DNA of 64,000 bases from Trichinella spiralis. Its lineage: Eukaryota. The stretch covers positions 3,031,144 to 3,095,143 of the forward strand of contig NW_003526945.1 of the NCBI RefSeq assembly GCF_000181795.1, given 5' to 3'. The notes beneath the pieces are model-generated. The model was not told the origin of the DNA. It did not search any database and saw nothing but the letters and a program-made list of their open reading frames with translations. The translations under genes were made by a program, and so were the position numbers. Positions 9,097-64,000 of this stretch are shown one piece after another; within the stretch, counting starts at the first letter, position 1, and every line of letters starts with the position of its first letter.

Positions 9097-9927
9097 NNNN
9101 NNNNNNNNNNNNNNNNNNNNNNNNNNNNNNNNNNNNNNNNNNNNNNNNNNNNNNNNNNNNNNNNNNNNNNNNNNNNNNNNNNNNNNNNNNNNNNNNNNNN
9201 NNNNNNNNNNNNNNNNNNNNNNNNNNNNNNNNNNNNNNNNNNNNNNNNNNNNNNNNNNNNNNNNNNNNNNNNNNNNNNNNNNNNNNNNNNNNNNNNNNNN
9301 NNNNNNNNNNNNNNNNNNNNNNNNNNNNNNNNNNNNNNNNNNNNNNNNNNNNNNNNNNNNNNNNNNNNNNNNNNNNNNNNNNNNNNNNNNNNNNNNNNNN
9401 NNNNNNNNNNNNNNNNNNNNNNNNNNNNNNNNNNNNNNNNNNNNNNNNNNNNNNNNNNNNNNNNNNNNNNNNNNNNNNNNNNNNNNNNNNNNNNNNNNNN
9501 NNNNNNNNNNNNNNNNNNNNNNNNNNNNNNNNNNNNNNNNNNNNNNNNNNNNNNNNNNNNNNNNNNNNNNNNNNNNNNNNNNNNNNNNNNNNNNNNNNNN
9601 NNNNNNNNNNNNNNNNNNNNNNNNNNNNNNNNNNNNNNNNNNNNNNNNNNNNNNNNNNNNNNNNNNNNNNNNNNNNNNNNNNNNNNNNNNNNNNNNNNNN
9701 NNNNNNNNNNNNNNNNNNNNNNNNNNNNNNNNNNNNNNNNNNNNNNNNNNNNNNNNNNNNNNNNNNNNNNNNNNNNNNNNNNNNNNNNNNNNNNNNNNNN
9801 NNNNNNNNNNNNNNNNNNNNNNNNNNNNNNNNNNNNNNNNNNNNNNNNNNNNNNNNNNNNNNNNNNNNNNNNNNNNNNNNNNNNNNNNNNNNNNNNNNNN
9901 NNNNNNNNNNNNNNNNNNNNNNNNNNN
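9097..9927. other. Assembly gap (N run)
   Basis: 831 Ns. ORFs spanning it are artefacts. Confidence 1.
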
Positions 9928-10620: not shown

Positions 10621-13600
10621 NNNNNNNNNNGTTCTAACATGACAACCACTGTTTCATCGGTGCTTCTGAGGAAGCATCATAAAGAGATAAGAGTTATCCG
10701 AAATTGTCCGATTAGAAAGCTATTTTCGTGCAATATGCCAGTGTTTTATTCTATAAATTTCAAATGCTCAAACCAGCAACTTTATCAAATTTCTCAAAAA
10801 ATCATCGATTGCGGGTTACTGAAAATTTACACACCTATAATTGGCACACAATTGCTTGCACTGATCATAAAAGTATTTTACAATATGCCGTAGTTAGTGA
10901 GAAGCATGGAATAAGTTTCACCGTACAAACTGGTGGATACCTCTACAGATTCGAATAAATACCATGCATGAGACCAATAGTTTGAAATGAATTGTGAATT
11001 AATTTAATTTCATAGCATTTGTATTGACGGTTCACCCTTGGCGACTAAACATTATACTAATTATGCAAATCACCATTGCATCGTTGTCACTTTACGTAAG
11101 TAAATGCAAATAGCCACATATTTGGTATTAATTAGAAGCTTAATACATGAAAAAGATGGTAATGGGGACCACATTACATTAAATGTTTGCTTTTTAGCAA
11201 AGTAAACAAGTACAACACTTTCGTTTGGATTCGCAGGAAATAATGATTATATAACAGCAAAATTTCAGAAATTCAGTTCAGTTGATCCTAAATAAAAGAT
11301 ACATTAGTGGACATCTAACAGATTCTATGTCAGAAATGTTTCATGTGCAAAAATTGGCAATTTCTGCTTCCGTTGAAGGAGAGGTCCGGATGTATGATTT
11401 CCCTACTTATTAAGATATCGATAATGCCTGAATTTAAGAGCCTATTTATTCCACAACTACCCGGCAGTTTATGGTCAAAATCTCCAAAAAATATTTTTTC
11501 TATCAATATAAAGCTATAACAATGAAAAAAAGTGAAAATTTTCAAAAGAAATTTTTCGCTGATTTTCGCGAAAACAACCAAGTCTATAGTCCATGAAATT
11601 TTTCAATTTTCGAGAAAAATTTTTTTCAACAAAAATTAAACCAATTGATTTTTATCGGTACAGAATTTTTCACTAACTATTATACACATATCTGAACGGC
11701 TGGCGATTGCGTAATTCTTGAGAAATACACAAAAAAGTGAAACTTAATATAGGATTTTAACGAATCCGAAATAAAAAGGAATGAAAAAGAAAAGTGAAGT
11801 AAATGTGCATATGGTATGGTTTCATTAATTTTTATAACGGATCTATCAATTTTTTCACCTAAAAAATGGAATTCATTTTATCAGGAATTGTCCCTGATTT
11901 TCATTTATATATCAAAAATTTTTAAATTAAAAACCTTTGTTCAGAGAATTTTTTGATTGATGGCAATTTAGAGATAAGAATTGTCCACAATTATTACATT
12001 TGGAAGTTATTTTCGTGCAATATGCCAGTCTGTTTATTCTAAAAATGCCAACTGCTCGAATCGGCAACTTTATGAAATTTTTCAAAAAATGATCGATTTC
12101 GGGTTTATCATAATTTACATACGTTTAAATGGCACAGAATTGCTTGCAATAATCGTATAATTATATTGCAATTTGCCATAGTTTCTGAGAAACTTGGAAT
12201 AATGTCCACTGTACATACTGGTGGATTCCTTTAAAGTTTCGAACAAATACCATGCATGAGCCCAATAATTTGACATAAATTGTGAATTTATTTAATTTTA
12301 TAGCATTTGTAATGAATTTCAACTCTGGGCGACTACATATTATACTAATTATGCAAATGGAAATTGCATGGTTGTTACTTTGCGAAATTAATTTCAAATA
12401 GTCACACATGTGAGATATATCAGGATCTTAATAAATGACAAAGATGGTAAACGGGATTGGATGCGACAAAATGTTTACTTTTTAGCAAAGTAAACAATTA
12501 TAATGCTTTTGTTTTGATTCGCAGCAACTGATGATTACTTAACAGCAGTAATTTCAGAAATTCATTACAATTGATCGTAAAAAACACAATAAATTAGTAG
12601 AAGTCTAATAACTTCGATATCAAAAATGTTTCATGTGTAGAAACTGGCAGTCTCTGCTTCGGTTGAAAGAGATTTACTGATGGGCGACTTCCCTATGTAT
12701 CACAGCAGGCAGTATCTCAACTTTAGAGCTCATTTATTATACAACTACCAGGCATTTTAAGGTCAAACTCTCCAAAAAAATATTTTTTTATCAATATAAA
12801 GCTATAACAATGAACAAATTTTGAAAACAAATTTTTTACCGATTTTCGCAAAAACAACCAAGTCTATAGTCCATGAAATTTTGCAATTTTCGAGAAAAAT
12901 TTATTTCTCCGAAAATTAAGGCAATTAATTTATATAGGTAGAGAATTATCCTCTAACTACTATAAAATTATCCGGAATGCTCCTGATTGCGTATTTCTTG
13001 AGATATACCCAAAAAAGTGAAAATAAAAATATGATTTTAAAGAAGTCGAAATAAAATGGAATGAAAAACAAAAGTTGAATAAATGTGCATATGGAATGGT
13101 ATCTTTAATTTTTACAACAAATCTATCAATGTTTTCACCCGAAAAAAAATTTTATTTTAATATTAATAGTTTTTGATTTTCATTTAAGCTGCAGGAACTT
13201 TAAAAATTAACAACCTTTGTTCACTGAATACATTTGATTAATTACAATGAACAGATAAGAATTATCCAAAATTATCCGATTAGAAAGCTATTTTTGTGCA
13301 ATATGCCAGTCTTTTATTCTACAAATTTCAACTGCTCAAATCGGCAAATTTATCGAATTCCTGAAAAAATCAACGATTGCGGGATATTGAAAATTTACAT
13401 ACCTATAATTGGCACGCAACTGCAAGCAATATTCATAAAATTATTTTACAATATGCCGTAGTTAGTGAGAAGCATGGAATAAGTTTCACCGTACAAACTG
13501 GTGGATACCTCTACAGATTCGAATAAATACTATGCACGAGCCCAATAGTTTGAAATGAATTGTAAATTTTGTTTCATAGCATTTGTAATAAACGTTCACC

Positions 13601-16600: not shown

Positions 16601-16917
16601 TAATTTATGTTCATAGTAATGTGTTGTTGGTAAGGATTACATGCTATTAAAAATCATGCCTTGAAAATAATTTCATAATAATTACTTCTTCATTCATTTT
16701 ATTATCTATAACATTTAAATAAGCTTCATGAAACAAAGTAGTGAGCAAAACAATGGAATTTGTTGAATACTGTAATTATTATTATTACTGTAAATTTCTA
16801 TAATAGTCAGGTATATTTTTCAATACTGTAGAGTGAAGTAAACTAGTTTGTCTTTTCGCAGGTAGGTAAGTTCCTTATCGTGTGCGATATACTTTTGCTT
16901 TGCTTCAGAAATTAGGA

Positions 16918-18058
16918 ATGGGTAAGGATTATTACAAAATATTGGGTATTAGCAGAAGTGCCACGGAAGATGAAATCAAAAAAGCTTATCGGAAGATGGC
17001 GTTGAAATATCATCCTGACAAGAACAAAAGCCCTGACGCAGAAAGCAAGTTTAAAGAGATTGCAGAAGCATACGATGTTCTGAGTGATGCTAAAAAGAAA
17101 GAAATATACGATAAATTTGGTGAAGAAGGCCTGAAAGGTGGGATGAATGCTGGGCCCTCAGGTCAAGCTTCTGGTCCTGAAGGTTATCATTACGCATTTA
17201 CTGGTGATCCTCGTCAGATTTTTGCGCAATTTTTTGGCGGCGAAGACCCGTTTTCGACATTCTTTTCCAGTGGACGTATGGGTGAATCCATGGAAACGGA
17301 AGATATATTTTCCCACTTTATGCCCAGAGGTCAAACACATACATTCACTAATATTGCTGGCGGTGGTGCTCCAGCTGGTTGTCCTCGACAGCAAGACCCA
17401 CCTTTACTTCATGACATCATGCTTTCGTTAGAAGAAGTTTATAAAGGCTGCGTGAAAAAGATGAAAGTTAAACGAAAGGTGTTGAATCCTGATGGTTTTA
17501 CAACACGCACAGAGGACAAAGTACTGGCCGTTAATGTAAAGCCCGGCTGGAAAGCTGGCACTAAAATTACATTTCCGAAGGAAGGTGATCAAGCTCCAAA
17601 TCGAATTCCGGCAGATATTGTATTTGTCGTTAAAGTTCGTGTTTTTTATTTATCATGCTTTTATGGAAATAATATCATTTTAGTTTCTGTTGTTGATGAC
17701 CTTTTATGTAATTCGTTGCGAAGGTGCATTTGAATTGTTATTTTTTCAGGATAAACCGCACGACGTCTTCAAACGCGAAGGATCTGATATTCGGTATGTG
17801 GCTACTGTTAGTCTACGTGATGCGCTGTGTGGATGCAGCATACATGTTCCTACTCTTGATCCGCACGCCGCAGTGCCACTGCAGATGACATCTGTGATAA
17901 AGCCAGGGCAGGTGACACGTTTTCACGGTATGGGCCTGCCGTTTCCGAAACAGCCAGATCGTCGTGGTGACTTAATTGTCGAATTCAAAGTGAAGTTTCC
18001 AGACACTCTTCCAAATGCAATAAAAGAAATTTTGCGTGACTGTTTGCCTGCAAAATAA
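16918..18058 (+). CDS. dnj-13: Class B DnaJ/Hsp40 co-chaperone (DNAJB1/4/5, C. elegans dnj-13-like), 341 aa; exons 16918-17634, 17750-18058
   Basis: [10 protein letters not shown]...KYHPDKN J-domain with HPD, G/F-rich region, C-terminal [13 protein letters not shown] and SLRDALCG...GMGLP...[17 protein letters not shown] intron 17635-17749 keeps frame. Family is clear; exact orthology is inferred. Confidence 0.93.
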
Positions 18059-28928: not shown

Positions 28929-30397
28929 AATTGCAAATATTCAACGGTACTGTAAGAACAACGGTACCACTGTGCACCAAGAAAGCTTGCTCAGCGGTTA
29001 TGGACAAAGGAAAGAACCGATGCAGTGGCCAACTGAAACGAACCACTCATTTTATTAACTGTTTTATTCGCTGTGACTTGTGGCGCAATCGACACTGCCG
29101 CTTGCAGCAGAAGAGGGTGTGACGACATACTGCGTTGAGAGTCGGGTAGGGAGGGGAGGGGGCTGTTGTTGGCGCGTTGTTAAATAAATATCTGTTATCG
29201 TTAATATTCAAGGGTCGGCAAGGAAAGAGAAGCAAAAAAAGACGTACGCACAACGCGTAATTAACATTCTACATTGATGAATTTATCTGGGCAAAATGCA
29301 GGCAACGTGAAACGAAACATTTCGATAAGACAGACAGCTAAGAAAGAGAGAGGGAGGAGGGAGAAAGAAATGAAAAAAAATCGAAAAAGCATGCTTGCTA
29401 ATCAATTATGAATAGATACCGCCGCACTGTTGCTACAGCAGGATCAACTGTTTCAGCTAATAATAATAATAATAATAATAATGGAGTAAGAAAAATGCAA
29501 AATCACTAACAAAACAGAAAGATACAAAATTAAAATTAAAATCAAAAACAAAAAATAAATAACCAATATCACGAGCTAAATCTAGAGATAAATTTGACAA
29601 GCGCTAGAGATTTCAACTAGCCGCCCTGGAACGGTGTTATGGCCCAAAAGTAGGCTGTTTCATGAAATTCACAAATAAATAAATAAACAAATGCTCTTAC
29701 GGACACTTGTCTGTTGGATAATGGTTCTCGGCGAACAAAAATAAGTTAACGACCTCTTTGTGACTAATTTGCCAGAAAAGAAAAATCAAAGCAACAGGTT
29801 GCGGTACAACAAAATTTACAACTAACCATCCATCCACTCAGTGGTGGAGGAAAAAATTGAAAAGAAGAAAAAAATTCCGCGCATTGTCTGTCAACAGCTA
29901 CCTCAGAAAATATTTGCAAATGAATGCTAGGCACGAAAACAAAAAGTCTTATTAATTAGTAAATTAATTAATTAATTAATTATTCATATTTCTCTCATGT
30001 ATACAAATGAAATAACAAAAACCAACCAAAGAAAGGATAAAAAAGAGGGAAGGGATAAAAAATGAAGAAACAAAAATAAATAAATGAATAAGAAAAGAAA
30101 AGAGGCAAAAAAATGGAAACATAAAAGCTGAAAGAGAGGGGGCAAAAAAAAGATAAAAATACAGAGAAAACAACTAAAAACAAAAGTGAAATCAATGCAT
30201 ATTATTATGCAAAATTATATTAAACAACAAAAATTAATAAATAATACAATAGATGAATGAATTAATTAATACGGAGTGTACAATGGAAGTTTTCCAACGA
30301 TTACAACTGAGGGCTTTGAGTCTTAAAGCGGTAGCTGCCGGTGCTGCCGATTTTGTTATTCAATATCCTTGCCTGCATGTTCGGTGCTGGATAACTG

Positions 30398-39302: not shown

Positions 39303-42300
39303 TGTATTACAAGTAGAAAACAAATTTTACCAGGAAAGTTGCACTAAAAGTATTACAAATGCATTACAAATGCCAAACATACAATGTTTTGCACATAGTG
39401 AAAGATATCATTGAATGAATTCTAAACTTCTGCTCAGTAAACATTGGAAATAATATATATTTTATAATTAACACGGCGATGTACTAAATATTTCTAAAAA
39501 TTTGAAATGCAATTGTTCAATTTAAAAGAAAAAATGTTACTGTATGTCACTGGAAATGTAAAGAAAAGTAGGTATTGAGCAAAACAAACACCACATTCTT
39601 ATAATTGTTTTTAGCTTAAATAATATTTTGCCCATCGTTTCATATTTAATACAATATAAATTTATCCAATATTAAACTTTTTGAAACAGATTTCACATAA
39701 ACAGAATCATCTTTTAAAATTGTTCATTTTTTACTTTTAACTATTGTTTTGTTTTTAACAGCATTATTATAATTAAATTTTATGTCCACTTATAACTTTT
39801 TTACTTCAAATAGGAATAAGATTAACTGTAAGATGACAGTTTAGAAAAAATGATAAAAATCATTTCTTCACATGAACATGATTTTCCAATTGTTTTTATT
39901 CATATGGTAGTCGTGAAGATTTTTAATGTGTCACTGATGGCTTGGAATTTGTTCTTGAAAATAATATTGTTTGAACTGTTTTTATCTTCATTCTAAATAA
40001 ACAGTACAGACAAGATTGTCAATTCGAAATTTACTTTATTTGAAAAAGATTTAACTGTTACACCAATGATAATCATAAATTACGTAAACAAAGAAACGAA
40101 TGCCTTTATTAAACATAGAATGAACTTATAAATTTGTTGCAATCTAGATTCTCAAACAATCGCTGTTAAATAAGAAGTGGGTTATTATCTTTTGTAAAAT
40201 GGAGATTTCGCTAATAATAACAATGAGAGTGATGCTGTGAATGAGGTATTAGTCGTAATTATTTTGAAGGATATGTATTGAAAATTTGCAAAAATAAACT
40301 TCGACATACAATATCCGATCATTGCATGTGAAAAATATCGTGACGGAGCAGTCAAGATTATTTCGCATTTTATACAAAATGTGCATTTATTCAGCATGAA
40401 AACAAAAAAGATGCTGAAAGTAAAACATGTTACGCTTGTAGTGCTGCGCCCTTTCCTTTGCTTTGTTGAAGAAGAAGTCGTTTGCTTTAATTTTTGTAGT
40501 TGTAAATCTGGAAATGAAGATTATTTTTAATCGTAAAATTCTCTAGAGCTATGCAAATAGGTTTCAAGTGTTCTGGTTGTATAGCAATACTGCCACGCTA
40601 TTGAGTCGTTGAAAAGATCATTACCAGTCGTCGATTGCTCGAAGCAAGCTGTTTTTACACTGATCATTTATTCGCAATATGCTGATGATTATGGGTTTTT
40701 TGTTTTAAAATAGCAAGCATGCAAGACGATTAAAACGTGAAATAGAATCATCAAGTGGAGATTTGTGCTATGATCTATTCTTTGTCATTTGGTATCTGAA
40801 GTGAAATTTAAATTAAATTTTATTAATGCGATGCTTGTTCTTTTAGCAGCTGTTGGCGTATTTGAAAACGTTAAGTTTGGGTAATTTTTAAATTCAGGGC
40901 TAAATTTTGCGACAGCCGTCAGTTCACTCGACGATTAGTATATTCCAAGAATCGGTTAATGCGTTATTCTTTTTAATTATCAGTTGCCGATTGTCAGCTG
41001 GTGAATATTTTTCAATGTTTAGTGATGTAAAATGACTTAGTATGCGTATTTTTGGCGTCAACTACTTTGCAAATGTGGACCTTATTTCTTTTTGAAACAT
41101 CTCCTCGACAATGAAGTGCATTATTATAACTTTTTCAAAAGCAGAACTTTTATATAGTTGTTATCGAGTTTCTGGTTTAAAATATTTGCATTCAAATTTA
41201 GCTTCTACTATCGGTCAAACGTTCATTCATTTCTTTTGCACAACCTGCGGTTAATCCATAAATACAACAACGTGATAGCGTTGCTAGATTGGCGTCAACA
41301 TTTTGCTAATACCAGATAATCATCGGTTGAAGCACAACAGACGACATCTATTTGCATTTCTGAGCAAATAAAAAACAAAAAGTGTTTGATATCGCCTGTT
41401 TGATAAAATAAATATATCTAAATTTTATATTATTATATACGAAGAGGAAGTGAAGCATTTGAAGATTCACTCGAAATTTTGATAAAAAATATTAAGAGAA
41501 AAATTCCAGTTTAATGTTTAAACTTTTACTAGCATGTTTATTCATTGATGAGAAAGCTTTTGGAAACGTGATAGATAATTTTAAATAAAAAAGTGCGAAA
41601 TAATTTCACTTGTTTAGCTTTGTTTTTCATTGTCATGTCATACATTTTATTATTTGATAACATCATAGCAAAACAGTTTGTCAATGTAATTATGAATATT
41701 TTTGCTTTTACATCATATTGAATAAATTGCAAACAATCTACTGATAAATTTGTTTGTCAATAAAATGGAAATATGTATACACGTGAAGACAAAGGGTTTT
41801 ATAGCAAAATAAAAATGAGCAAATATTTTATAATAAAACTTTTTATTGTGGAGTGGAACGTGAAAATTTTCATCGTCATTGAGCAAATGTTTCGTAGAAC
41901 ATTCCATTCACCTAATCAGGTAGTTCAATTTGTGAATATTGAAAATTTCCAATCAGTCATAAAGCAATATTGATATTTGAAAATTTGAGCTCCAAATATC
42001 TGATAAATGAGAACAGTTTCTATGTGTGCAGTTTGTTTGAATACTGCCACTGTTTTAAGCAGTGATGCAATTATTTGGACAGACGATTATTGATATTCGT
42101 ACTGATTTATAATGTGATGCTAGGTGATACTCTTTTCATCAAGCGAACACTTGGAATAACCAGTTTAAAGTACGCCTTGAGTATTTATATTTCGAATTGT
42201 ACAGACAATATCAAAAGCCAGATTTTGTACTGTCCAAGAATTTCTCAACACACGCAAAGCATTCCGAGAGAAGCGCTTTTGAATTTCATTTTACATTTGT

Positions 42301-43625: not shown

Positions 43626-46600
43626 ATGACATCGGATTTTAGTGCATGTCGGCAGGGCGGCGTCAGAACGCCGCTCAGTTTTCGCCATGCAATGGACACA
43701 TGCGTCCGCTGCGGTAGGCCGGCTACGGTTGTGGCCAGTTTGAAGCAGCTGAATTGTGCGCATCTTATTTGTGCTGGTTGTGCGCATGTTCGAGGTCTGG
43801 GAGCTTGTCCGCTTTGTATGCCGCTTAAAGAAGGCAGTTATGAAATGTTAGCTTGCCGTCTGTCGAACAGCACTACCTCTGCGGACGCCTCAGGCCGGTC
43901 GAGTGTTGTCAGTCAGCAGCAGCAGCAACAGCAGCAGCAGCTGTTCAACAATGATCAACTGTGCCCAGCTACCTCAAGCCCCGCTGTGTCCAGATTCTAT
44001 GCGCCTGTGCAGGATACAAGTCTACCTCCGGTTGATTTAAAATTGCAACGTAAAAGTTATATTATTATTATTTTGTCGTTTCAATTGCAGGCGTGTACAG
44101 CTGATTCACATTCTGGTAGCTTTTTACCAACTACTACTATTACTACTACCTCTGCCGTCCCGCAAACGCAGTTTAGTGGATATCGTATTCCGACTGCTTT
44201 ACCTCGTCCAAATTGCAGCGGTTGTATGGGCGGAGTGAGAGCGATTGCAAAATGTGAAGACTGTCAAGAATTTCTGTGTGCCGACTGCGCAAATTGTCAT
44301 CACCGGACTGTGGGCGTTAAGCCGCATCGTATTTTAGATTTGTTTTCAAATTCTGTTCACAATTACAATTCTTCTGATTTTAATTATCATACAAATTCTC
44401 AGCAACAACAACAACAGTGTGCTCTGACACGAATGTCTCAGCTGAGCTTATGTAATGGAATGAACGATCATGGAATATCGCTTTGCAAGTGAGCAGTGTT
44501 TATTCGGTTGTTCTCCTTATTTCTTTAATATTGTTTCAGCGTTCATTTGACGGATTATACGCATATTTTTTGCGATGGCTGCCTAACATTCATCTGCCCC
44601 AAATGTGCCGTTGACCATCATGGTCACGGTCTTCGCACTACCGGTGGAAGTTTAATATCTCCGGCTAATGAGATGGACGTGAAAAATACTCGTCGACTGT
44701 TGAATTCAGGACATATGCATTTGAAGCTGGTCACCGACAGTCTGGATTCAGTGAATCGAATGGGCAACAGACTCGAATCCCGTGTGACTGGACTGGTCAA
44801 AGATATACAGACCATTTCGCAGACATTGATCAACGCTCTCGAAGAACGTCGTCTGAAGTGGTTGGAACAATTGCAAAGTTGGCGTGTGTTGAGAATGGGC
44901 AAATTGTCAATGTGCGAGGAGCATCTCAGGCATTACCGTGATCGAATCCAAATAGCCGTGGCCAAGTTGGAAAATTTGGGCTCCTTGAACACCGCCGACA
45001 GTGATTTATGGCACCACGAGCTCGAAGAATGCATCAGAACATTTCCCTATGAGCTGATGCCTCACGAAGATGACAACCTCGCGTTTTTGTCACCCAAGCC
45101 GTTCATTTTGATGACCATACAACAAGCCGGTGGTTTGAAAACCAACGCCAGTCCGATTCATTCGGTCGTTTACGGTGAAAATGGTCGCCAATGTGTCAAA
45201 GGTATCGTATGTTCGTTTTGTTTTTTTTTGTTTCTTCTTCTTCTTTCATATTATCTTTTTTCGACCATATTACAATACATGGATATTTTTTGTTTAATAA
45301 TTGTATGTTTTGTTTTGGAAAAATCACATCCGGTTTTACAAGGAAACGAAAATTGGTGACGTATAAAAATTGCTTGCTTAAATAAGTACAGTGATGTATG
45401 CGATAATTGTGTGGGAGAAACGAGCAATAAGAATAAAAATGGTGACGTTTGAATTTTAAGTAGGGACAGGTTTCAGTTGTTACCTTATCCAAGGTTATTG
45501 CATAAAAAATGTTTTTGTTCATACATTTATTGATTTTACTGTCGAGTAATTAAGGAAAAGCCTGAGGGTTGTGATAATGTTAATGAAACAGGGGAAAGAT
45601 ATCTATATGTATATATATGTGTATATATGGATGTACGTATGTTGTATATGTACATCCTGAAATTGGAAATTGGCCAAAGGGAGGATTGTATGTCAACGGC
45701 AGTTGTTACAGACAAGCAATTGTTCGTCCCTGGCACAGTGTATTTTTTTTTTGTGTTTCTATTTCGACTGCTTTTGGTCAATGCACTTTCAGTGGAAAAC
45801 TGGTGTTTCTTTCATTCTGGTTACAAAAATGATAATAATAATAGCAGAGTACTGTAATTGTTTTCATTTTTCCATTTTATAATTGATTCAAGTTAGAATT
45901 TTTAAATTTCAAATTGATTATAAAAAGAGAAAAAAAATACATTTATTACATATTTGCATATTATTGATGTTGGTTGAATGGAGAATAATTTTGTTATTTA
46001 GCGAACGTGTCGCTGTGAAAGTCGATTTACAAGGTTTCCCTTGCGGAAATTGTCACTTTTGAGAATTCGTTCACCTTTACAAGGAAAATTTGAATTATCT
46101 TTTATTAATTTCACAATGCGTCCGTCATTCAAAAGTACAATCAAAGAAGATGTTATATATATTTTGAAATGAAGTTCAAAAAAAGAGAAATTAATGAAAA
46201 TAAATATGCTGTGACGTAAAATGATGATTGAAATCTCTGAAGAGAAGAAATTGTACTTGAAGATTAATAAATAATGAAATTTTACAATATTAGAATGGAG
46301 ATGATTTGATTTAGTTGGGAGCAATAGAAGAAGGGTAAAAATTTCTTTTCCAAGCCAATTGTCGGGTAATTGATTGTCATCAAATCAGGATTTTGGTCGG
46401 TTGACAGAATTGCATTGTTTTCAGGAAGATTTGTTTCTTTTTTTTTTGAAAATCATATTCAAAAGTTGCTTTGATTACGCACAGTTGAGCTAGATCAAAT
46501 TGCCTTTCGATGTGAATGATGTGGTGCAGAGAGGGAGAGAGAGATGTTGTATTCGTACCGTTGTAGCACGTGATTGGATACGGTTGATTGTGAATCGGTT

Positions 46601-47872
46601 TGCTGTTTTCAAATTGTATAATTTTTGTGCTTCCTTTTTGCAGATGCAAATGTCATGTACATGGTGGAGACGATAGATTATTTCAATCAACCGCTGCGCG
46701 TGGGCGGGGATTTGGTCAGCGGGGTGGTTCAACAGCCGAACGGTGTTTTCGAGTACATGCAGGTTGTGGACCGCAACGACGGCAAGTATACTTGCACCTT
46801 CACACCCAGAATGGAAGGTGAACATTTGGTACGTGTCTCGGTTAGCATGGTGGTATATGCATTGTGTATTGTATGTTTGTTTGTTTGTTTGTTGAAGGTC
46901 AGCTTGTTCGTACGGGGACAGGCGATGCCGAATTGTCCGCTGAAGTTGTCGGTCAATGGGGGACGCAGCTATTTAACTGTCAGCGGTCGCTATCCGACCA
47001 ATCGGTTCTGCTCGCAGGGCAGCGGCGACGGTCAGCTCTACCGACCCTGGGGCATTGCTTGTGACAAGCTGAATCGAATCATCGTCGCCGATCGTACCAA
47101 CCACCGGATTCAGATATTCGACAGCGAGGGCAGGTTCTTGACAAAGTTCGGCTGTCAGGGCTGCCGGGACGGTCAGTTCGACCGACCGGCGGGTGTGGCG
47201 GTGACCAGCTCCAACGACATCGTCGTTGTCGACAAGGACAACCACCGGGTGCAAGTGTTCACATCGAACGGTCTGTTCAAGCTGAAATTCGGCGAAAAGG
47301 GCCGCGACGTCGGCCAGTTCAATTATCCCTGGGGCGTGGCCGTCTCGCCCGACGACATCATCGCCGTCTCAGACACTCGCAACCACCGCGTTCAACTGTT
47401 CACCGCCAACGGCCTGTTCTGGCGCAAGTTCGGATACGAGCAGGCATTGTATTACAAGCAGTTCGACTCGCCCCGGGGTGTGGCGTTCGGTCCGGACGGG
47501 CGTCGGCTCTTCTGCACCGACTTCAACAACCACCGTCTGGTCGTGTACGACTTGGCCGCCGGCCGGGTGACCATGCACGGTGTCGAAGGCGACGCCGAGG
47601 CTCATTTCCGTCGTCCGCAAGGAATCGACGTCGACACCCAGGGCAATTTGTTCGTTGCCGACAGTCGCAACAATCGGATTCAAATTTTCTCGCCTCAGAT
47701 GAACTTCATCGCTTCAATCGACTGCGGTCGCGGCACCAGTATCGCCAACGGCACCGCCAACCAGCACCACCACGGTCGGCCGTTCATGGACACGCCCACC
47801 GACGTCTGCGTCTCACCGGACGGCAAGGTTTACGTGGTCGACTTTGGAAACAATCGTATACTAGTATTTTGA
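43626..47872 (+). CDS. lin-41: LIN-41/TRIM71 TRIM-NHL protein (RING, two B-boxes, coiled coil, filamin, six NHL repeats); exons 43626-44030, 44091-44488, 44540-45201, 46644-46828, 46898-47872
   Basis: C3HC4 RING (CVRC..CAHLICAGC..CPLC); B-box1 (CSGC..CEDCQEFLCADCANCH); B-box2 (CNVH..FCDGCLTFICPKCAVDHHGH); filamin (VVDRNDGKYTCTFTP). The NHL repeats follow the TRIM71 order of motifs: RPWG, ADRTNHRIQIF, FDRPAGVA, DKDNHRVQVF, KFGEKG..GQFNYPW, SDTRNHR, FDSPRGVAF, TDFNNHRL, RPQG, DSRNNR, VDFGNNRILVF*. Start could alternatively be 43692. Confidence 0.93.
43867..44205 (+). promoter_or_regulatory. Cluster of predicted let-7 complementary sites within the lin-41 CDS
   Basis: CTACCTC at 43873, 43969 (8-mer CTACCTCA), 44022 and 44146; TACCTC at 44200. 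3'-supplementary matches ACAGC (43867), AACTGTGC (43957), ATACAA (44014), ACTAT (44136). Confidence 0.7.
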
Positions 47873-47898: not shown

Positions 47899-47921
47899 AC
47901 TGTGTCGACTCTACTACCCTC
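47899..47921 (+). promoter_or_regulatory. Predicted non-canonical (seed-bulged) let-7 site in the lin-41 3' UTR
   Basis: ACTGTG-T-CGAC-T-CTACTACC-C-TC pairs with let-7 nt 2-21 using three single-nucleotide target bulges and three G:U pairs. Confidence 0.55.
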
Positions 47922-48212
47922 TTCGATTGGCAATTTTTCTTTTATCATTTCCACTGGTGCAACATTTATTTTTCCACACACCCACCACATGCACATACAG
48001 AAATGTACATTTGACATGCAAAGGTAGAGGGTGGGCTCACAGAGTTCGGCCGGTTTGTATTTGTTCTTCTTTTTTTTATTGTTTTAATTATTGATTAATT
48101 ATTTCCGACGATGAGACCTCTGGTCTGCTTGGGAGATGATGTTTCGTTTGAAAAATTTCTTCATTCCGTTGCCATGGGCAGAATTTTATTCATTTCCAAT
48201 CACAGTGTGACG

Positions 48213-48214
48213 AT

Positions 48215-48270
<56 letters not shown>
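48213..48270. repeat. (AT)n microsatellite in the putative lin-41 3' UTR
   Basis: Imperfect AT run, ~58 bp. Confidence 0.95.
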
Positions 48271-48273
<3 letters not shown>

Positions 48274-49428
48274 TGAGTGCAAGAAGCAAAATACAACGCG
48301 TTGATTGTTCTGCGATGACAACAGACACACAGTGTACGCGTTTTTCACACTAATTAATTATCCAATATGAAAAATATCCATTTCTGACAATTTCAACGCC
48401 TCTACTTTCATTTTCAAGCTTCAGCTTCATTTTACCGTTCAACTTTGCTATTCCACGTTCGTCTATTTTCTTTGTTTCAACTTGTTTGTTTGTTCTCTGT
48501 TTGTTTGTTTGTTTGTTTGTTTGTTCTGTTGTTCTGTTTTGCTCCAACGGAACGGAAATAGCGGGATCCCAGCTCCCACCCTCCTTCCCTACCTGCCTGC
48601 TGTTCAGCATTCATTCATTGTTGGATAGGAAACTAGCGGAACTGAATTCAACAATTTTCAACTTTCATCTGTCCCTCTCTGCCTCTCTGTTCTCTTCATC
48701 AGATTTTTACAAACTTTACCACCGGTATTCGTCGATTACTGGTAGATGATATTCTTTTTTCTTTCTTTTTTTTCAACAATTAATTTTCTCTTTTTTTGGT
48801 GAAAAATTTGGCTTTATCTAAAAAGAAAGAAAAAGAATTGTCATATGGCGTGTGAAATTTTTTATCATCAACTCACCCTAATAACCTACCTACTACCTAC
48901 CTACCTACCTACATACTCATCAAAATTAATACGTCGCTACTGTCATCAGAACGGTATTTCTCACTACACATGTGTAGCACAATGTATTTCACCATTATCG
49001 CTGCAATTTAGCAACGAACGAACCAAACTGACATTTGCTTCATCATTATCATATAATCATCATCATCTTCTTCTTCTTATTCTTCTCTTGTTGATGGGAA
49101 ATATCTTTCTTTCATCATTCATTCATTATATATACATACATATACATATGTGGTCATTTTTGAGGTGTTTTTTAAATTGTCATTATTCTCATCTGTAAAA
49201 CAGGTGTTTTGTCCGCTTTTACGCTTAGCTTATGATGATGTGATGTTGACACGCTTGTTTAATTCAATACATGCGTTGTTCTTCTTTTTCGCTAGCCATT
49301 TTTGTGACGTGATGATGACAATAATGTGTAATATGGAACGAATCAATTCGGCTTTTGTTTATTGATTAATAATAATTACTGTCTTTGCTTTCCGTTGGGT
49401 TTCAAATGAAAAAAAAATTTCCATCTTT

Positions 49429-49456
49429 CCTACCTACCTACCTACCTACCTACCTA
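49429..49456. repeat. (CCTA)7 microsatellite in the putative lin-41 3' UTR
   Basis: cctacctacctacctacctacctaccta. Confidence 0.95.
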
Positions 49457-49978
49457 CTCTTTGTCTTCTACCTTTCAACATAACTACCTATCATTTATTC
49501 ATCTACACATCCATCCATCCATCCATCCATCTGTCCGTCCGTCTGTCCATCCATTCATCCATACATTGTTTTCTCTTTGTTTGAGTTGTTTTCCATTTGG
49601 AAATATAGGAACGTATGAATGTTTTCAGTATGCGAGTATGATTATGTTTTTTGTGTGCATGCTTGCATGTCATGCGCACTTTGTGGCTGATGATTACATG
49701 GACGAATAGAAAATAAAAGGCATAAATTATCTTCATTTATGCTGTTGATGATTGATTGATTTGTCCAAATGAATTAAAATATTAAACAAAATATAAAAAA
49801 TTTGAAAAAAAGAACAAAGCTTACGCAATTGTTGCTTTTTTTTAGTTCGCCAAAATTATAATACTACACACTCACTCACCTTTACAAGACGAATCATTTT
49901 AAAACACAAGATAGAGGATGCTTTGATTTTGCGAATGATAATAAAATTGGCAATGTAAAAAGGTGTTGTTGCCAGTTT

Positions 49979-55010: not shown

Positions 55011-64000
<8,990 letters not shown>

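What the first reader, a model, noticed from the sequence alone, without database searches (positions are those of the whole stretch)
43867..44205. let-7 target sites clustered inside the lin-41 CODING sequence rather than the 3' UTR
Known: let-7 (UGAGGUAGUAGGUUGUAUAGUU) repression of lin-41/TRIM71 is conserved from C. elegans to mammals and acts through 3' UTR sites. Seen: four perfect nt 2-8 matches plus a 6-mer in ~340 bp of the low-complexity RING-to-B-box linker. (1) 43867-43879 ACAGC-ACTACCTC pairs nt 2-9 and 12-16. (2) 43957-43976 AACTGTGC-CCAG-CTACCTCA is an 8-mer that also pairs nt 15-22 with two G:U. (3) 44014-44028 ATACAA-GT-CTACCTC pairs nt 13-18 perfectly, the same ATACAA 3' anchor as the C. 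elegans LCSs. (4) 44136-44152 ACTAT-TA-CTACTACCTC pairs nt 2-11 and 17-21. (5) TTACCTC at 44199. The sites lie in two codon phases (T-T-S, A-T-S, T-T-S versus L-P-P, L-P-R), so protein sequence alone does not explain them. All stay exonic after removing intron 44031-44090, spaced ~53-96 nt apart. By eye I saw only three other + strand CTACCTC in the window (5705, 29898, 34111) and none in the ~1.9 kb downstream of the stop. Inference: heterochronic let-7 control has been relocated to, or duplicated in, the ORF by exploiting a disordered linker. CDS let-7 sites have precedent in human Dicer; I know of none for lin-41 but cannot search.
Basis: partly seen in the sequence, partly recalled or inferred. 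Interest (0 to 1): 0.9.

Follow-up and report, generated by a model that had tools for sequence, protein, structure and literature searches.

The report
let-7 sites inside Trichinella lin-41 ORF
The Trichinella spiralis lin-41/TRIM71 gene carries four perfect let-7 seed matches inside its coding sequence, far more than its protein sequence and codon usage would give, plus a near full-length let-7 match just after the stop codon, so let-7 likely represses this classic target through both the reading frame and the 3' UTR.

Summary
The window is Trichinella spiralis; 43626-47872 (+) is its lin-41/TRIM71 gene. CTACCTC lies at 43873, 43969 (8mer), 44022 and 44146, all in exons 1-2 between the RING and B-box 1, and TTACCTC lies at 44199.

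The protein sequence allows this 7-mer at only 6 places and 4 are realised (P 6e-6). None of 20,000 synonymous-codon shuffles reach 4. It is the most over-represented 7-mer of the CDS. Of 15 conserved T. spiralis miRNA seeds, only let-7 matches more than once. T. spiralis has a let-7 identical to the C. elegans one, most abundant in adults.

In Trichuris LIN-41 proteins, 11 of the 12 seed-encoded residues are identical, against 28 of 99 other linker residues.

The region after the stop is not empty: 47899-47921 pairs let-7 g2-g21 with a bulged seed, like C. elegans LCS1. It is one of the two best let-7 duplexes in the 64 kb. The control was therefore added to the ORF, not moved there.

Orthologue DNA, RNA-seq and any functional test were out of reach. 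Verdict: likely real let-7 sites, a new variant of a known circuit.

The parts
43626..47872 (+). lin-41/TRIM71 gene of Trichinella spiralis. CDS exons: 43626-44030, 44091-44488, 44540-45201, 46644-46828, 46898-47872 (stop TGA 47870-47872); 874 aa.
   Evidence: ORFs and GT..AG junctions. 100% identity to NCBI 'E3 ubiquitin-protein ligase TRIM71 [Trichinella spiralis]'. Pfam: NHL x6 and Filamin above cut-off; RING and B-box matches below cut-off. The start MTSDF aligns with the start of the Trichuris suis proteins. No RNA evidence.
43860..43879 (+). CDS let-7 site 1. 7mer-m8 seed at 43873-43879 (codons ACT ACC TCT = T-T-S). Pairs g2-g9 and g12-g20.
   Evidence: duplex -17.8 kcal/mol, unremarkable against nulls
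43957..43976 (+). CDS let-7 site 2. 8mer CTACCTCA at 43969-43976 (GCT ACC TCA = A-T-S). Pairs g1-g9, g11-12 and g15-g22.
   Evidence: -22.6 kcal/mol in its own context and -23.4 in the window scan, the best let-7 duplex in the 64 kb on both strands. Top 2-4% of the 3'-context nulls.
44005..44028 (+). CDS let-7 site 3. 7mer-m8 seed at 44022-44028 (CTA CCT CCG = L-P-P), 2 nt before the exon 1 donor. ATACAA pairs g13-g18.
   Evidence: Uses the rarest Leu codon (CTA, 3 of 70) and CCT (5 of 39); P of this codon choice 0.0055.
44031..44090 (+). Putative 60-nt intron 1 (GTTGAT...TTGCAG), in frame and free of stops
   Evidence: NCBI models both retain and remove it. Trichuris muris lacks a segment at this place and Trichuris suis models carry one.
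44129..44152 (+). CDS let-7 site 4. 7mer-m8 seed at 44146-44152 (ACT ACC TCT = T-T-S). Contiguous pairing g2-g11, plus g15-g22.
   Evidence: -21.3 kcal/mol, fourth best duplex in the window, top 4% of nulls
44191..44205 (+). Marginal site 5. TTACCTC at 44199-44205 (TTA CCT CGT = L-P-R): g2-g7 plus a g8 G:U pair.
   Evidence: -14.7 kcal/mol; residues not conserved in Trichuris
47899..47921 (+). LCS1-like let-7 site 27-49 nt after the stop codon. Seed CTACC[C]TC has one bulged target C. let-7 g2-g21 are all paired (20 pairs, 3 G:U), with three single-nt target bulges.
   Evidence: -23.2 kcal/mol, second best of 63,084 windows scanned on both strands. 0 of 300 dinucleotide shuffles of the first 500 nt after the stop reach it. 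Predicted P(unpaired) 0.87. That it lies in the 3' UTR is inferred from its position only.
48878..48912 (+). (CCTA)n microsatellite with offset let-7 6-mers (CTACCT) and one g3-g13 match. Whether it belongs to the lin-41 3' UTR is unknown.
   Evidence: -19.3 kcal/mol. The first AATAAA after the stop is at 49712.

Best explanation
The T. spiralis lin-41/TRIM71 mRNA carries four canonical let-7 seed sites in its coding sequence and one bulged, near full-length let-7 site just after its stop codon, and let-7 is likely to repress LIN-41 through both. Shown directly: the sites, their excess over what the protein sequence and codon usage give, the pairing, the existence of an identical let-7 in this species, and the conservation in Trichuris of the residues that the seeds encode. 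Inferred: as let-7 rises toward the adult stage, Argonaute-let-7 would bind the 3' UTR site, as at C. elegans LCS1, and the four ORF sites in the RING-to-B-box linker. ORF sites would mainly slow or block translation, and the 3' UTR site would mainly destabilise the mRNA; together they would shut LIN-41 off. Selection to keep the seeds would then fix codon choice, and with it the small amino-acid islands [T/P]TS, ATS, LPP and TTS, in an otherwise fast-evolving linker.
For: (1) 4 of the 6 places where the protein permits CTACCTC carry it, and a fifth carries the G:U form. Expected 0.196; exact P(>=4) = 6e-6. 0 of 20,000 synonymous shuffles reach 4, for the whole CDS or for the linker alone. (2) CTACCTC ranks first for excess among the 38 7-mers that occur 3 times or more in the CDS. 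(3) Of 15 conserved T. spiralis miRNA seeds, let-7 has 4 CDS matches, one other has 1 and 13 have 0. (4) tsp-let-7 is UGAGGUAGUAGGUUGUAUAGUU, with TPM of 25,573 in adults, 5,554 in muscle larvae and 1,067 in newborn larvae (PMC3212509 Table 1). The mir-100/let-7/mir-125 cluster is intact in T. spiralis (PMC3384580 passage). (5) In a scan of the whole window on both strands, the two best let-7 duplexes are CDS site 2 and the post-stop site, and site 4 is fourth. (6) 3' pairing beyond the seed: the summed energy of the four sites is beaten by 0.7% of CDS-context nulls and 4.4% of linker-context nulls. (7) 11 of 12 seed-encoded residues are identical in T. muris and T. suis, against 28 of 99 other linker residues (Fisher 3e-5, block permutation 2.4e-4). 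The one change, T to P, keeps the NCT codon form the seed needs. (8) CDS sites are known to work: let-7 sites occur in the Dicer coding region (PMC4482082 passage), and CDS sites inhibit translation and are co-used with 3' UTR sites (PMC3613578 abstract).
Against: There is no functional, CLIP or expression evidence. Orthologue DNA could not be obtained, so conservation at the nucleotide level is untested. Peptide conservation in Trichuris could reflect protein function: island 1 is conserved for 7 residues 3' of the seed (TSAD.SGRS), which let-7 pairing cannot explain. Sites 1 and 4 share an 11-mer (ACTACCTCTGC) and may not be independent; counted as one event, P(>=3) = 4e-4. For sites 1 and 3, 3' pairing energy is ordinary (27-47% of nulls are as good). 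Predicted accessibility of three of the four seeds is ordinary (56th-61st percentile). Spacings of 53-96 nt lie outside the range usually linked with cooperative sites (recalled). The authors' qRT-PCR did not reproduce the low let-7 level in newborn larvae. A later abstract reports let-7-5p in vesicles from newborn larvae (abstract only).
Confidence: 0.7

Rival explanations
1. Only the post-stop LCS-like site is a working let-7 site. The four ORF seed matches are bystanders: conserved Ser/Thr/Pro peptide motifs of the linker whose codons match let-7 by chance or by descent from a duplicated unit.
For: The linker islands are conserved as peptides in Trichuris, and island 1 extends beyond what pairing explains. 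Sites 1 and 4 share an 11-mer. CDS sites are generally weaker than 3' UTR sites (PMC3613578 introduction). Accessibility of sites 1-3 is ordinary.
Against: Peptide conservation leaves codons free, yet 4 of 6 permitted places carry the exact 7-mer (P 6e-6, or 4e-4 with sites 1 and 4 merged). Site 3 uses the rarest Leu codon. If the islands predate the Trichinella-Trichuris split, as the shared peptides suggest, unconstrained synonymous positions should have decayed; how old that split is was not checked here. No other conserved miRNA seed shows any excess.
Confidence: 0.2
2. The repeated CTACCTC word is selected for a function other than let-7 binding, for example as an exonic splicing enhancer (site 3 lies 2 nt from a weak GTTGAT donor) or as a binding site for an RNA-binding protein.
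For: Site 3 abuts the exon 1 donor, and the donor is non-consensus. Nothing else.
Against: Three of the four sites are 60-160 nt from any junction. The word is exactly the g2-g8 complement of the miRNA for which this gene is the classic target. Two sites add strong 3' pairing to let-7. A separate let-7 site follows the stop.
Confidence: 0.05
3. Pure chance or a compositional artefact of a low-complexity region.
For: The linker is low-complexity (poly-Q, Thr runs), and (CCTA)n microsatellites occur nearby.
Against: Shuffles that keep the protein sequence and codon usage give 0 of 20,000. Elsewhere the window has 3 copies in about 127 kb of both strands. (CCTA)n does not contain the word.
Confidence: 0.05

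Closest known systems
C. elegans lin-41 3' UTR let-7 complementary sites LCS1 and LCS2
   Same: Same miRNA (identical 22-mer) and same target gene family. The post-stop site at 47899-47921 has the LCS1 layout: a single bulged target nucleotide in the seed compensated by long 3' pairing. In C. elegans one LCS has a GU pair and the other a target A-bulge, and both pair to g11-g19 (PMC9161110 passage; PMC2995062 passages).
   Different: Only one such site was found after the stop, not a pair. The bulged base is C, not A. Two further single-nt target bulges interrupt the 3' pairing. The four perfect-seed sites are in the ORF, which is not described for lin-41 in any paper my searches found (open-access library only).
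let-7 sites in the coding sequence of human Dicer (Forman, Legesse-Miller and Coller 2008)
   Same: let-7 seed matches inside an ORF of a gene that also has 3' UTR let-7 sites (PMC4482082 passage).
   Different: Different gene and phylum. I saw only the citing passage and the reference title, not the paper. Here the sites cluster in about 280 nt of a poorly conserved linker near the 5' end of the ORF.
CDS plus 3' UTR co-targeting by miRNAs (Hausser et al. 2013)
   Same: General model in which CDS sites are under selection, inhibit translation and are combined with 3' UTR sites that trigger decay (abstract).
   Different: That is a statistical result in mammals. Nothing there concerns lin-41 or nematodes.
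LIN-41/TRIM71 proteins of Trichuris muris and T. suis
   Same: Same architecture; 54% identity over the full length. The four seed-encoding islands are collinear and conserved.
   Different: Only protein sequences were available, so it is unknown whether their codons spell the let-7 seed.

Membership tests
Canonical let-7 seed site (7mer-m8 / 8mer) | Contiguous Watson-Crick match to miRNA g2-g8 (plus A opposite g1 for an 8mer) | tested here: met
   Four 7mer-m8 matches, one of them an 8mer
Canonical let-7 seed site (7mer-m8 / 8mer) | The cognate miRNA exists and is expressed in the organism | tested here: met
   tsp-let-7 sequence and TPM in three stages, read in PMC3212509 Table 1. No let-7 locus lies in this window and the genome is not held.
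Canonical let-7 seed site (7mer-m8 / 8mer) | Location in the 3' UTR (the classical expectation for animal miRNA sites and for lin-41) | tested here: not met
   All four lie in exons 1-2, in frame between the RING and B-box 1
Canonical let-7 seed site (7mer-m8 / 8mer) | Preferential conservation of the site at the nucleotide level in orthologues | not testable with these tools
At the protein level, 11 of 12 seed residues are identical in Trichuris.
Canonical let-7 seed site (7mer-m8 / 8mer) | miRNA-dependent repression or Argonaute occupancy | not testable with these tools
   Needs a reporter assay or CLIP/CLASH
LCS-type lin-41 site (imperfect seed plus compensatory 3' pairing) | Seed with one target bulge or one G:U pair | tested here: met
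   CTACC[C]TC at 47914-47921
LCS-type lin-41 site (imperfect seed plus compensatory 3' pairing) | Pairing to let-7 g11-g19 | tested here: met
   g9-g21 all paired, with 3 G:U pairs and two single-nt target bulges
LCS-type lin-41 site (imperfect seed plus compensatory 3' pairing) | [quoted passage not shown] | tested here: inconclusive
   Starts 27 nt after the stop codon, but no transcript data; the first AATAAA is at 49712
LCS-type lin-41 site (imperfect seed plus compensatory 3' pairing) | Two adjacent sites (LCS1 and LCS2), as in C. elegans | tested here: not met
   Only one duplex at or below -20 kcal/mol lies after the stop; the next best is the (CCTA)n repeat at -19.3
LIN-41/TRIM71 (TRIM-NHL) | Filamin domain followed by six NHL repeats | tested here: met
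   Run on the T. britovi orthologue P0007 (99% identical to the window's NHL exon): Pfam NHL 175.7 bits in 6 stretches; Filamin 40.7 bits against a cut-off of 26.9
LIN-41/TRIM71 (TRIM-NHL) | N-terminal RING and two B-boxes | tested here: inconclusive
   zf-RING_5 19.0 bits (cut-off 27.9); zf-B_box 21.0 and 17.1 bits (cut-off 24.1). The Cys/His patterns are visible but below the curated cut-offs.
LIN-41/TRIM71 (TRIM-NHL) | Coiled coil between B-box 2 and the filamin domain | not tested
   No coiled-coil predictor was run

The most novel reading that the evidence does not exclude
In Trichinellida, the earliest-branching nematodes with genomes, let-7 controls lin-41 largely through four sites inside the reading frame that predate the Trichinella-Trichuris split. 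On this reading, miRNA pairing has dictated codon choice and frozen four small amino-acid islands in an otherwise drifting disordered linker: a miRNA shaping the protein sequence of its own archetypal target.
Probability: 0.4. Interest if true: 0.75.

Novelty: new variant of a known kind. Interest (0 to 1): 0.6.

Why it matters
let-7 and lin-41 form the founding example of a conserved miRNA-target pair, and every described case acts through the 3' UTR. A clade in which the same pair also uses a cluster of ORF sites would matter in three ways. It would show that the circuit is conserved while the site location is plastic. It would give a natural system for asking what ORF sites add to a 3' UTR site, for instance translation block versus decay. 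It would also be a clean example of miRNA pairing constraining protein sequence. In addition, it identifies a likely developmental-timing switch in a zoonotic parasite whose four molts take place within about 30 hours (recalled).

Tried and rejected
1. The whole genome of the window is not held, so neither the let-7 locus nor genome-wide word frequencies could be examined.
3. Two metagenome scans, one with the N-terminal alignment and one with the full-length alignment, returned no relative.
4. All three protein searches found only encapsulated-clade Trichinella, and in one search Trichuris. No T. pseudospiralis, T. papuae or T. zimbabwensis orthologue turned up, so intermediate divergence could not be sampled even at the protein level.
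5. The search of protein representatives met a full queue four times. LIN-41 linkers outside Trichinellida were therefore not compared, and I cannot say whether the four peptide islands exist elsewhere.
6. Rfam: no family hit at gathering score anywhere in the window. Only TA-repeat noise appeared at E<=1 around the gene. This rejects the idea that the antisense strand or the let-7-like fragment near 40571-40590 is a miRNA gene.
7. No miR-125/lin-4 7-mer seed match in the CDS or in the 1.86 kb after the stop.
8. Accessibility and 3'-pairing energy for sites 1 and 3 gave no extra support.
9. Earlier notes of this scan held nothing on this genome or this idea.
10. The other three CTACCTC copies (5705, 29898, 34111) could not be assigned to a gene.
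Full report
**What the locus is.** The N-terminal ORF of the flagged region is 100% identical to NCBI proteins named 'E3 ubiquitin-protein ligase TRIM71 [Trichinella spiralis]', so the window is T. spiralis DNA. From open frames and GT..AG junctions I built a five-exon model on the + strand: 43626-44030, 44091-44488, 44540-45201, 46644-46828 and 46898-47872. The stop is TGA at 47870-47872, and the product is 874 aa. Pfam was run on the T. britovi orthologue P0007, which is 99% identical to the window's NHL exon, and on the window's exons 1 and 2. It finds six NHL repeats and a filamin domain above the curated cut-offs, and RING and two B-box matches below them. The start MTSDF coincides with the start of the Trichuris suis proteins. 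The model therefore rests on sequence logic and on the NCBI protein models, which exist both with and without the in-frame 60-nt intron 44031-44090. In either form the flagged sites are coding, between the RING and B-box 1.

**The observation.**
- CTACCTC occurs at 43873, 43969, 44022 and 44146, and at only three other places in the window (5705, 29898, 34111), all on the + strand. Dinucleotide shuffles expect 1.62 on both strands, and 0 of 100 shuffles reach 7.
- The match at 43969 is an 8mer (CTACCTCA). TTACCTC at 44199 is a 6-mer with a possible g8 G:U pair.
  - site 1: g2-g9 and g12-g20
  - site 2: g1-g9, g11-12 and g15-g22
  - site 3: g2-g8 and g12-g20
  - site 4: g2-g11 and g15-g22

**Is it more than chance?**
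- Codon shuffles. Shuffling synonymous codons among identical amino acids keeps the protein and the gene's codon usage. It gives a mean of 0.20 copies, and 0 of 20,000 shuffles reach 4. Restricting the shuffle to the linker gives a mean of 0.23, again 0 of 20,000.
- Permitted places. The protein allows the 7-mer at only six places (TTS, ATS, LPP, TTS, LPR, SYL). Four carry it and a fifth (LPR) carries the wobble form. The exact Poisson-binomial tail is 6e-6. It is 4e-4 if sites 1 and 4, which share an 11-mer, count as one event. Site 3 uses CTA, the rarest Leu codon (3 of 70), and CCT (5 of 39).
- Other words. Among the 38 7-mers present three or more times in the CDS, CTACCTC has the largest excess.
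- Other miRNAs. Among the seed complements of the 15 conserved T. spiralis miRNAs in Table 1 of PMC3212509, let-7 has 4 CDS matches, one other has 1 and 13 have 0.
- Pairing beyond the seed. Support here is modest. Sites 2 and 4 fall in the best 2-4% of contexts and sites 1 and 3 are ordinary. The summed energy is matched by 0.7% of CDS-context nulls and 4.4% of linker-context nulls.
- Accessibility. Predicted accessibility of the four seeds is ordinary to good (56th-88th percentile).

**Does the species have let-7?** Yes. PMC3212509 (Table 1 and passages read) reports tsp-let-7 as UGAGGUAGUAGGUUGUAUAGUU. Its TPM is 25,573 in adults, 5,554 in muscle larvae and 1,067 in newborn larvae. The authors note that qRT-PCR did not reproduce the low value in newborn larvae. 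PMC3384580 (one passage) states that T. spiralis is the only nematode with an intact mir-100/let-7/mir-125 cluster.

A sliding duplex scan shows a site at 47899-47921, 27-49 nt after the stop. All of let-7 g2-g21 are paired there: 20 pairs, 3 of them G:U, and three single-nt target bulges, one of them a C inside the seed (CTACC[C]TC). The energy is -23.2 kcal/mol.
- In a scan of the entire window on both strands (63,084 windows), the two best duplexes are CDS site 2 (-23.4) and this site. Site 4 is fourth.
- 0 of 300 dinucleotide shuffles of the first 500 nt after the stop reach -23.2 (mean minimum -14.6, sd 2.0).
- The seed region is predicted to be open (P unpaired 0.87).
- This is the layout of the C. 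elegans lin-41 LCSs. There one seed has a target A-bulge and the other a G:U pair, and both pair to g11-g19 (PMC9161110 passage; PMC2995062 passages).

The 3' UTR control therefore appears to be retained, and the ORF sites are an addition. They are not a relocation.

**Relatives.** Protein searches found only encapsulated-clade Trichinella (spiralis, nativa, T6, T8, T9, britovi, murrelli, nelsoni). Their linkers are almost identical to this one, which is too close to be informative. One search also found Trichuris muris and T. suis.

In the alignment with Trichuris, 39 of the 111 linker residues are identical in both species. The conserved islands fall on the seeds:
- [T/P]TSAD.SGRS
- PATSS
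- LPP
- TTTS.V.Q

11 of the 12 seed-encoded residues are identical, against 28 of 99 others (Fisher 3e-5; block permutation 2.4e-4). The single change, T to P, keeps the NCT form that the seed needs.

This fits constraint at the RNA level, but it is protein evidence only. Island 1 is also conserved for seven residues 3' of the seed, which pairing cannot explain. Orthologue DNA could not be reached.

**Mechanism, with its inferred steps marked.**
- Shown: the sites, their statistical excess, the pairing, the miRNA, and the conserved residues.
- Inferred: as let-7 rises toward the adult stage, it binds the post-stop site and the four ORF sites and lowers LIN-41.
- By analogy with the mammalian analysis of Hausser et al. 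(abstract read), ORF sites would mainly inhibit translation and the 3' UTR site would mainly promote decay. let-7 sites in an ORF have a precedent in Dicer (citing passage).

**Rivals.**
- Only the post-stop site works and the ORF matches are bystander peptide motifs (0.2).
- The word serves another function, such as splicing (0.05).
- Chance (0.05).

**Novelty.** Six searches of the open-access library found no paper that places let-7 sites in a lin-41/TRIM71 coding sequence or that treats lin-41 in Trichinella or Trichuris. Subscription-only papers were not searched. I rate the finding a new variant of a known kind.

**Limits.**
- No RNA evidence for the gene model or the UTR end.
- No orthologue DNA.
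- No LIN-41 linkers from outside Trichinellida, because the queue was full.
- No functional data.

Noticed in passing
window 29881-29906 (+): A let-7 8mer (CTACCTCA at 29898) with good 3' pairing (-21.3 kcal/mol), the third best let-7 duplex in the window. I could not assign it to a gene: the local + strand frames are short and the nearest clear gene (30.6-32.7 kb) is on the - strand.
   Followed up: partly
window 48886-48912 and 49430-49455 (+): (CCTA)n microsatellites 1.0 and 1.6 kb after the lin-41 stop give 5 and 6 offset let-7 6-mers (CTACCT) and one g3-g13 match. The first AATAAA after the stop is at 49712, so they may or may not lie in the 3' UTR.
   Followed up: partly
window 44031-44090 and 46829-46897: Two short lin-41 introns (60 and 69 nt) are in frame and free of stops. 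This explains why NCBI carries isoform models that read through them. The T. suis models carry a comparable in-frame insert at the first position.
   Followed up: partly
protein P0005 (NCBI, T. spiralis): An older T. spiralis record names this locus 'putative JmjC domain-containing histone demethylation protein 2B'. Its C-terminal half is read in a shifted frame across the NHL exon, so it looks like a mis-annotation.
   Followed up: no
window 9097-9927 and 10621-10630: Runs of N (831 and 10 bases): an assembly gap or a masked stretch.
   Followed up: no
window 16870-17733 (+); 55572-60327 (-): Neighbouring genes: a DnaJ/Hsp40 exon (DnaJ and DnaJ_C domains), and several exons of a Hobbit/FMP27-family lipid-transfer protein on the - strand.
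   Followed up: no
window 48196-48281: A (TA)n repeat gives sub-threshold Rfam hits to mir-1277 and mir-297, which is repeat noise.
   Followed up: yes
window 40571-40590 (+): GGTTGTATAGC resembles the 3' half of let-7, but the seed half is missing and there is no Rfam let-7 hit. Judged a chance match.
   Followed up: yes
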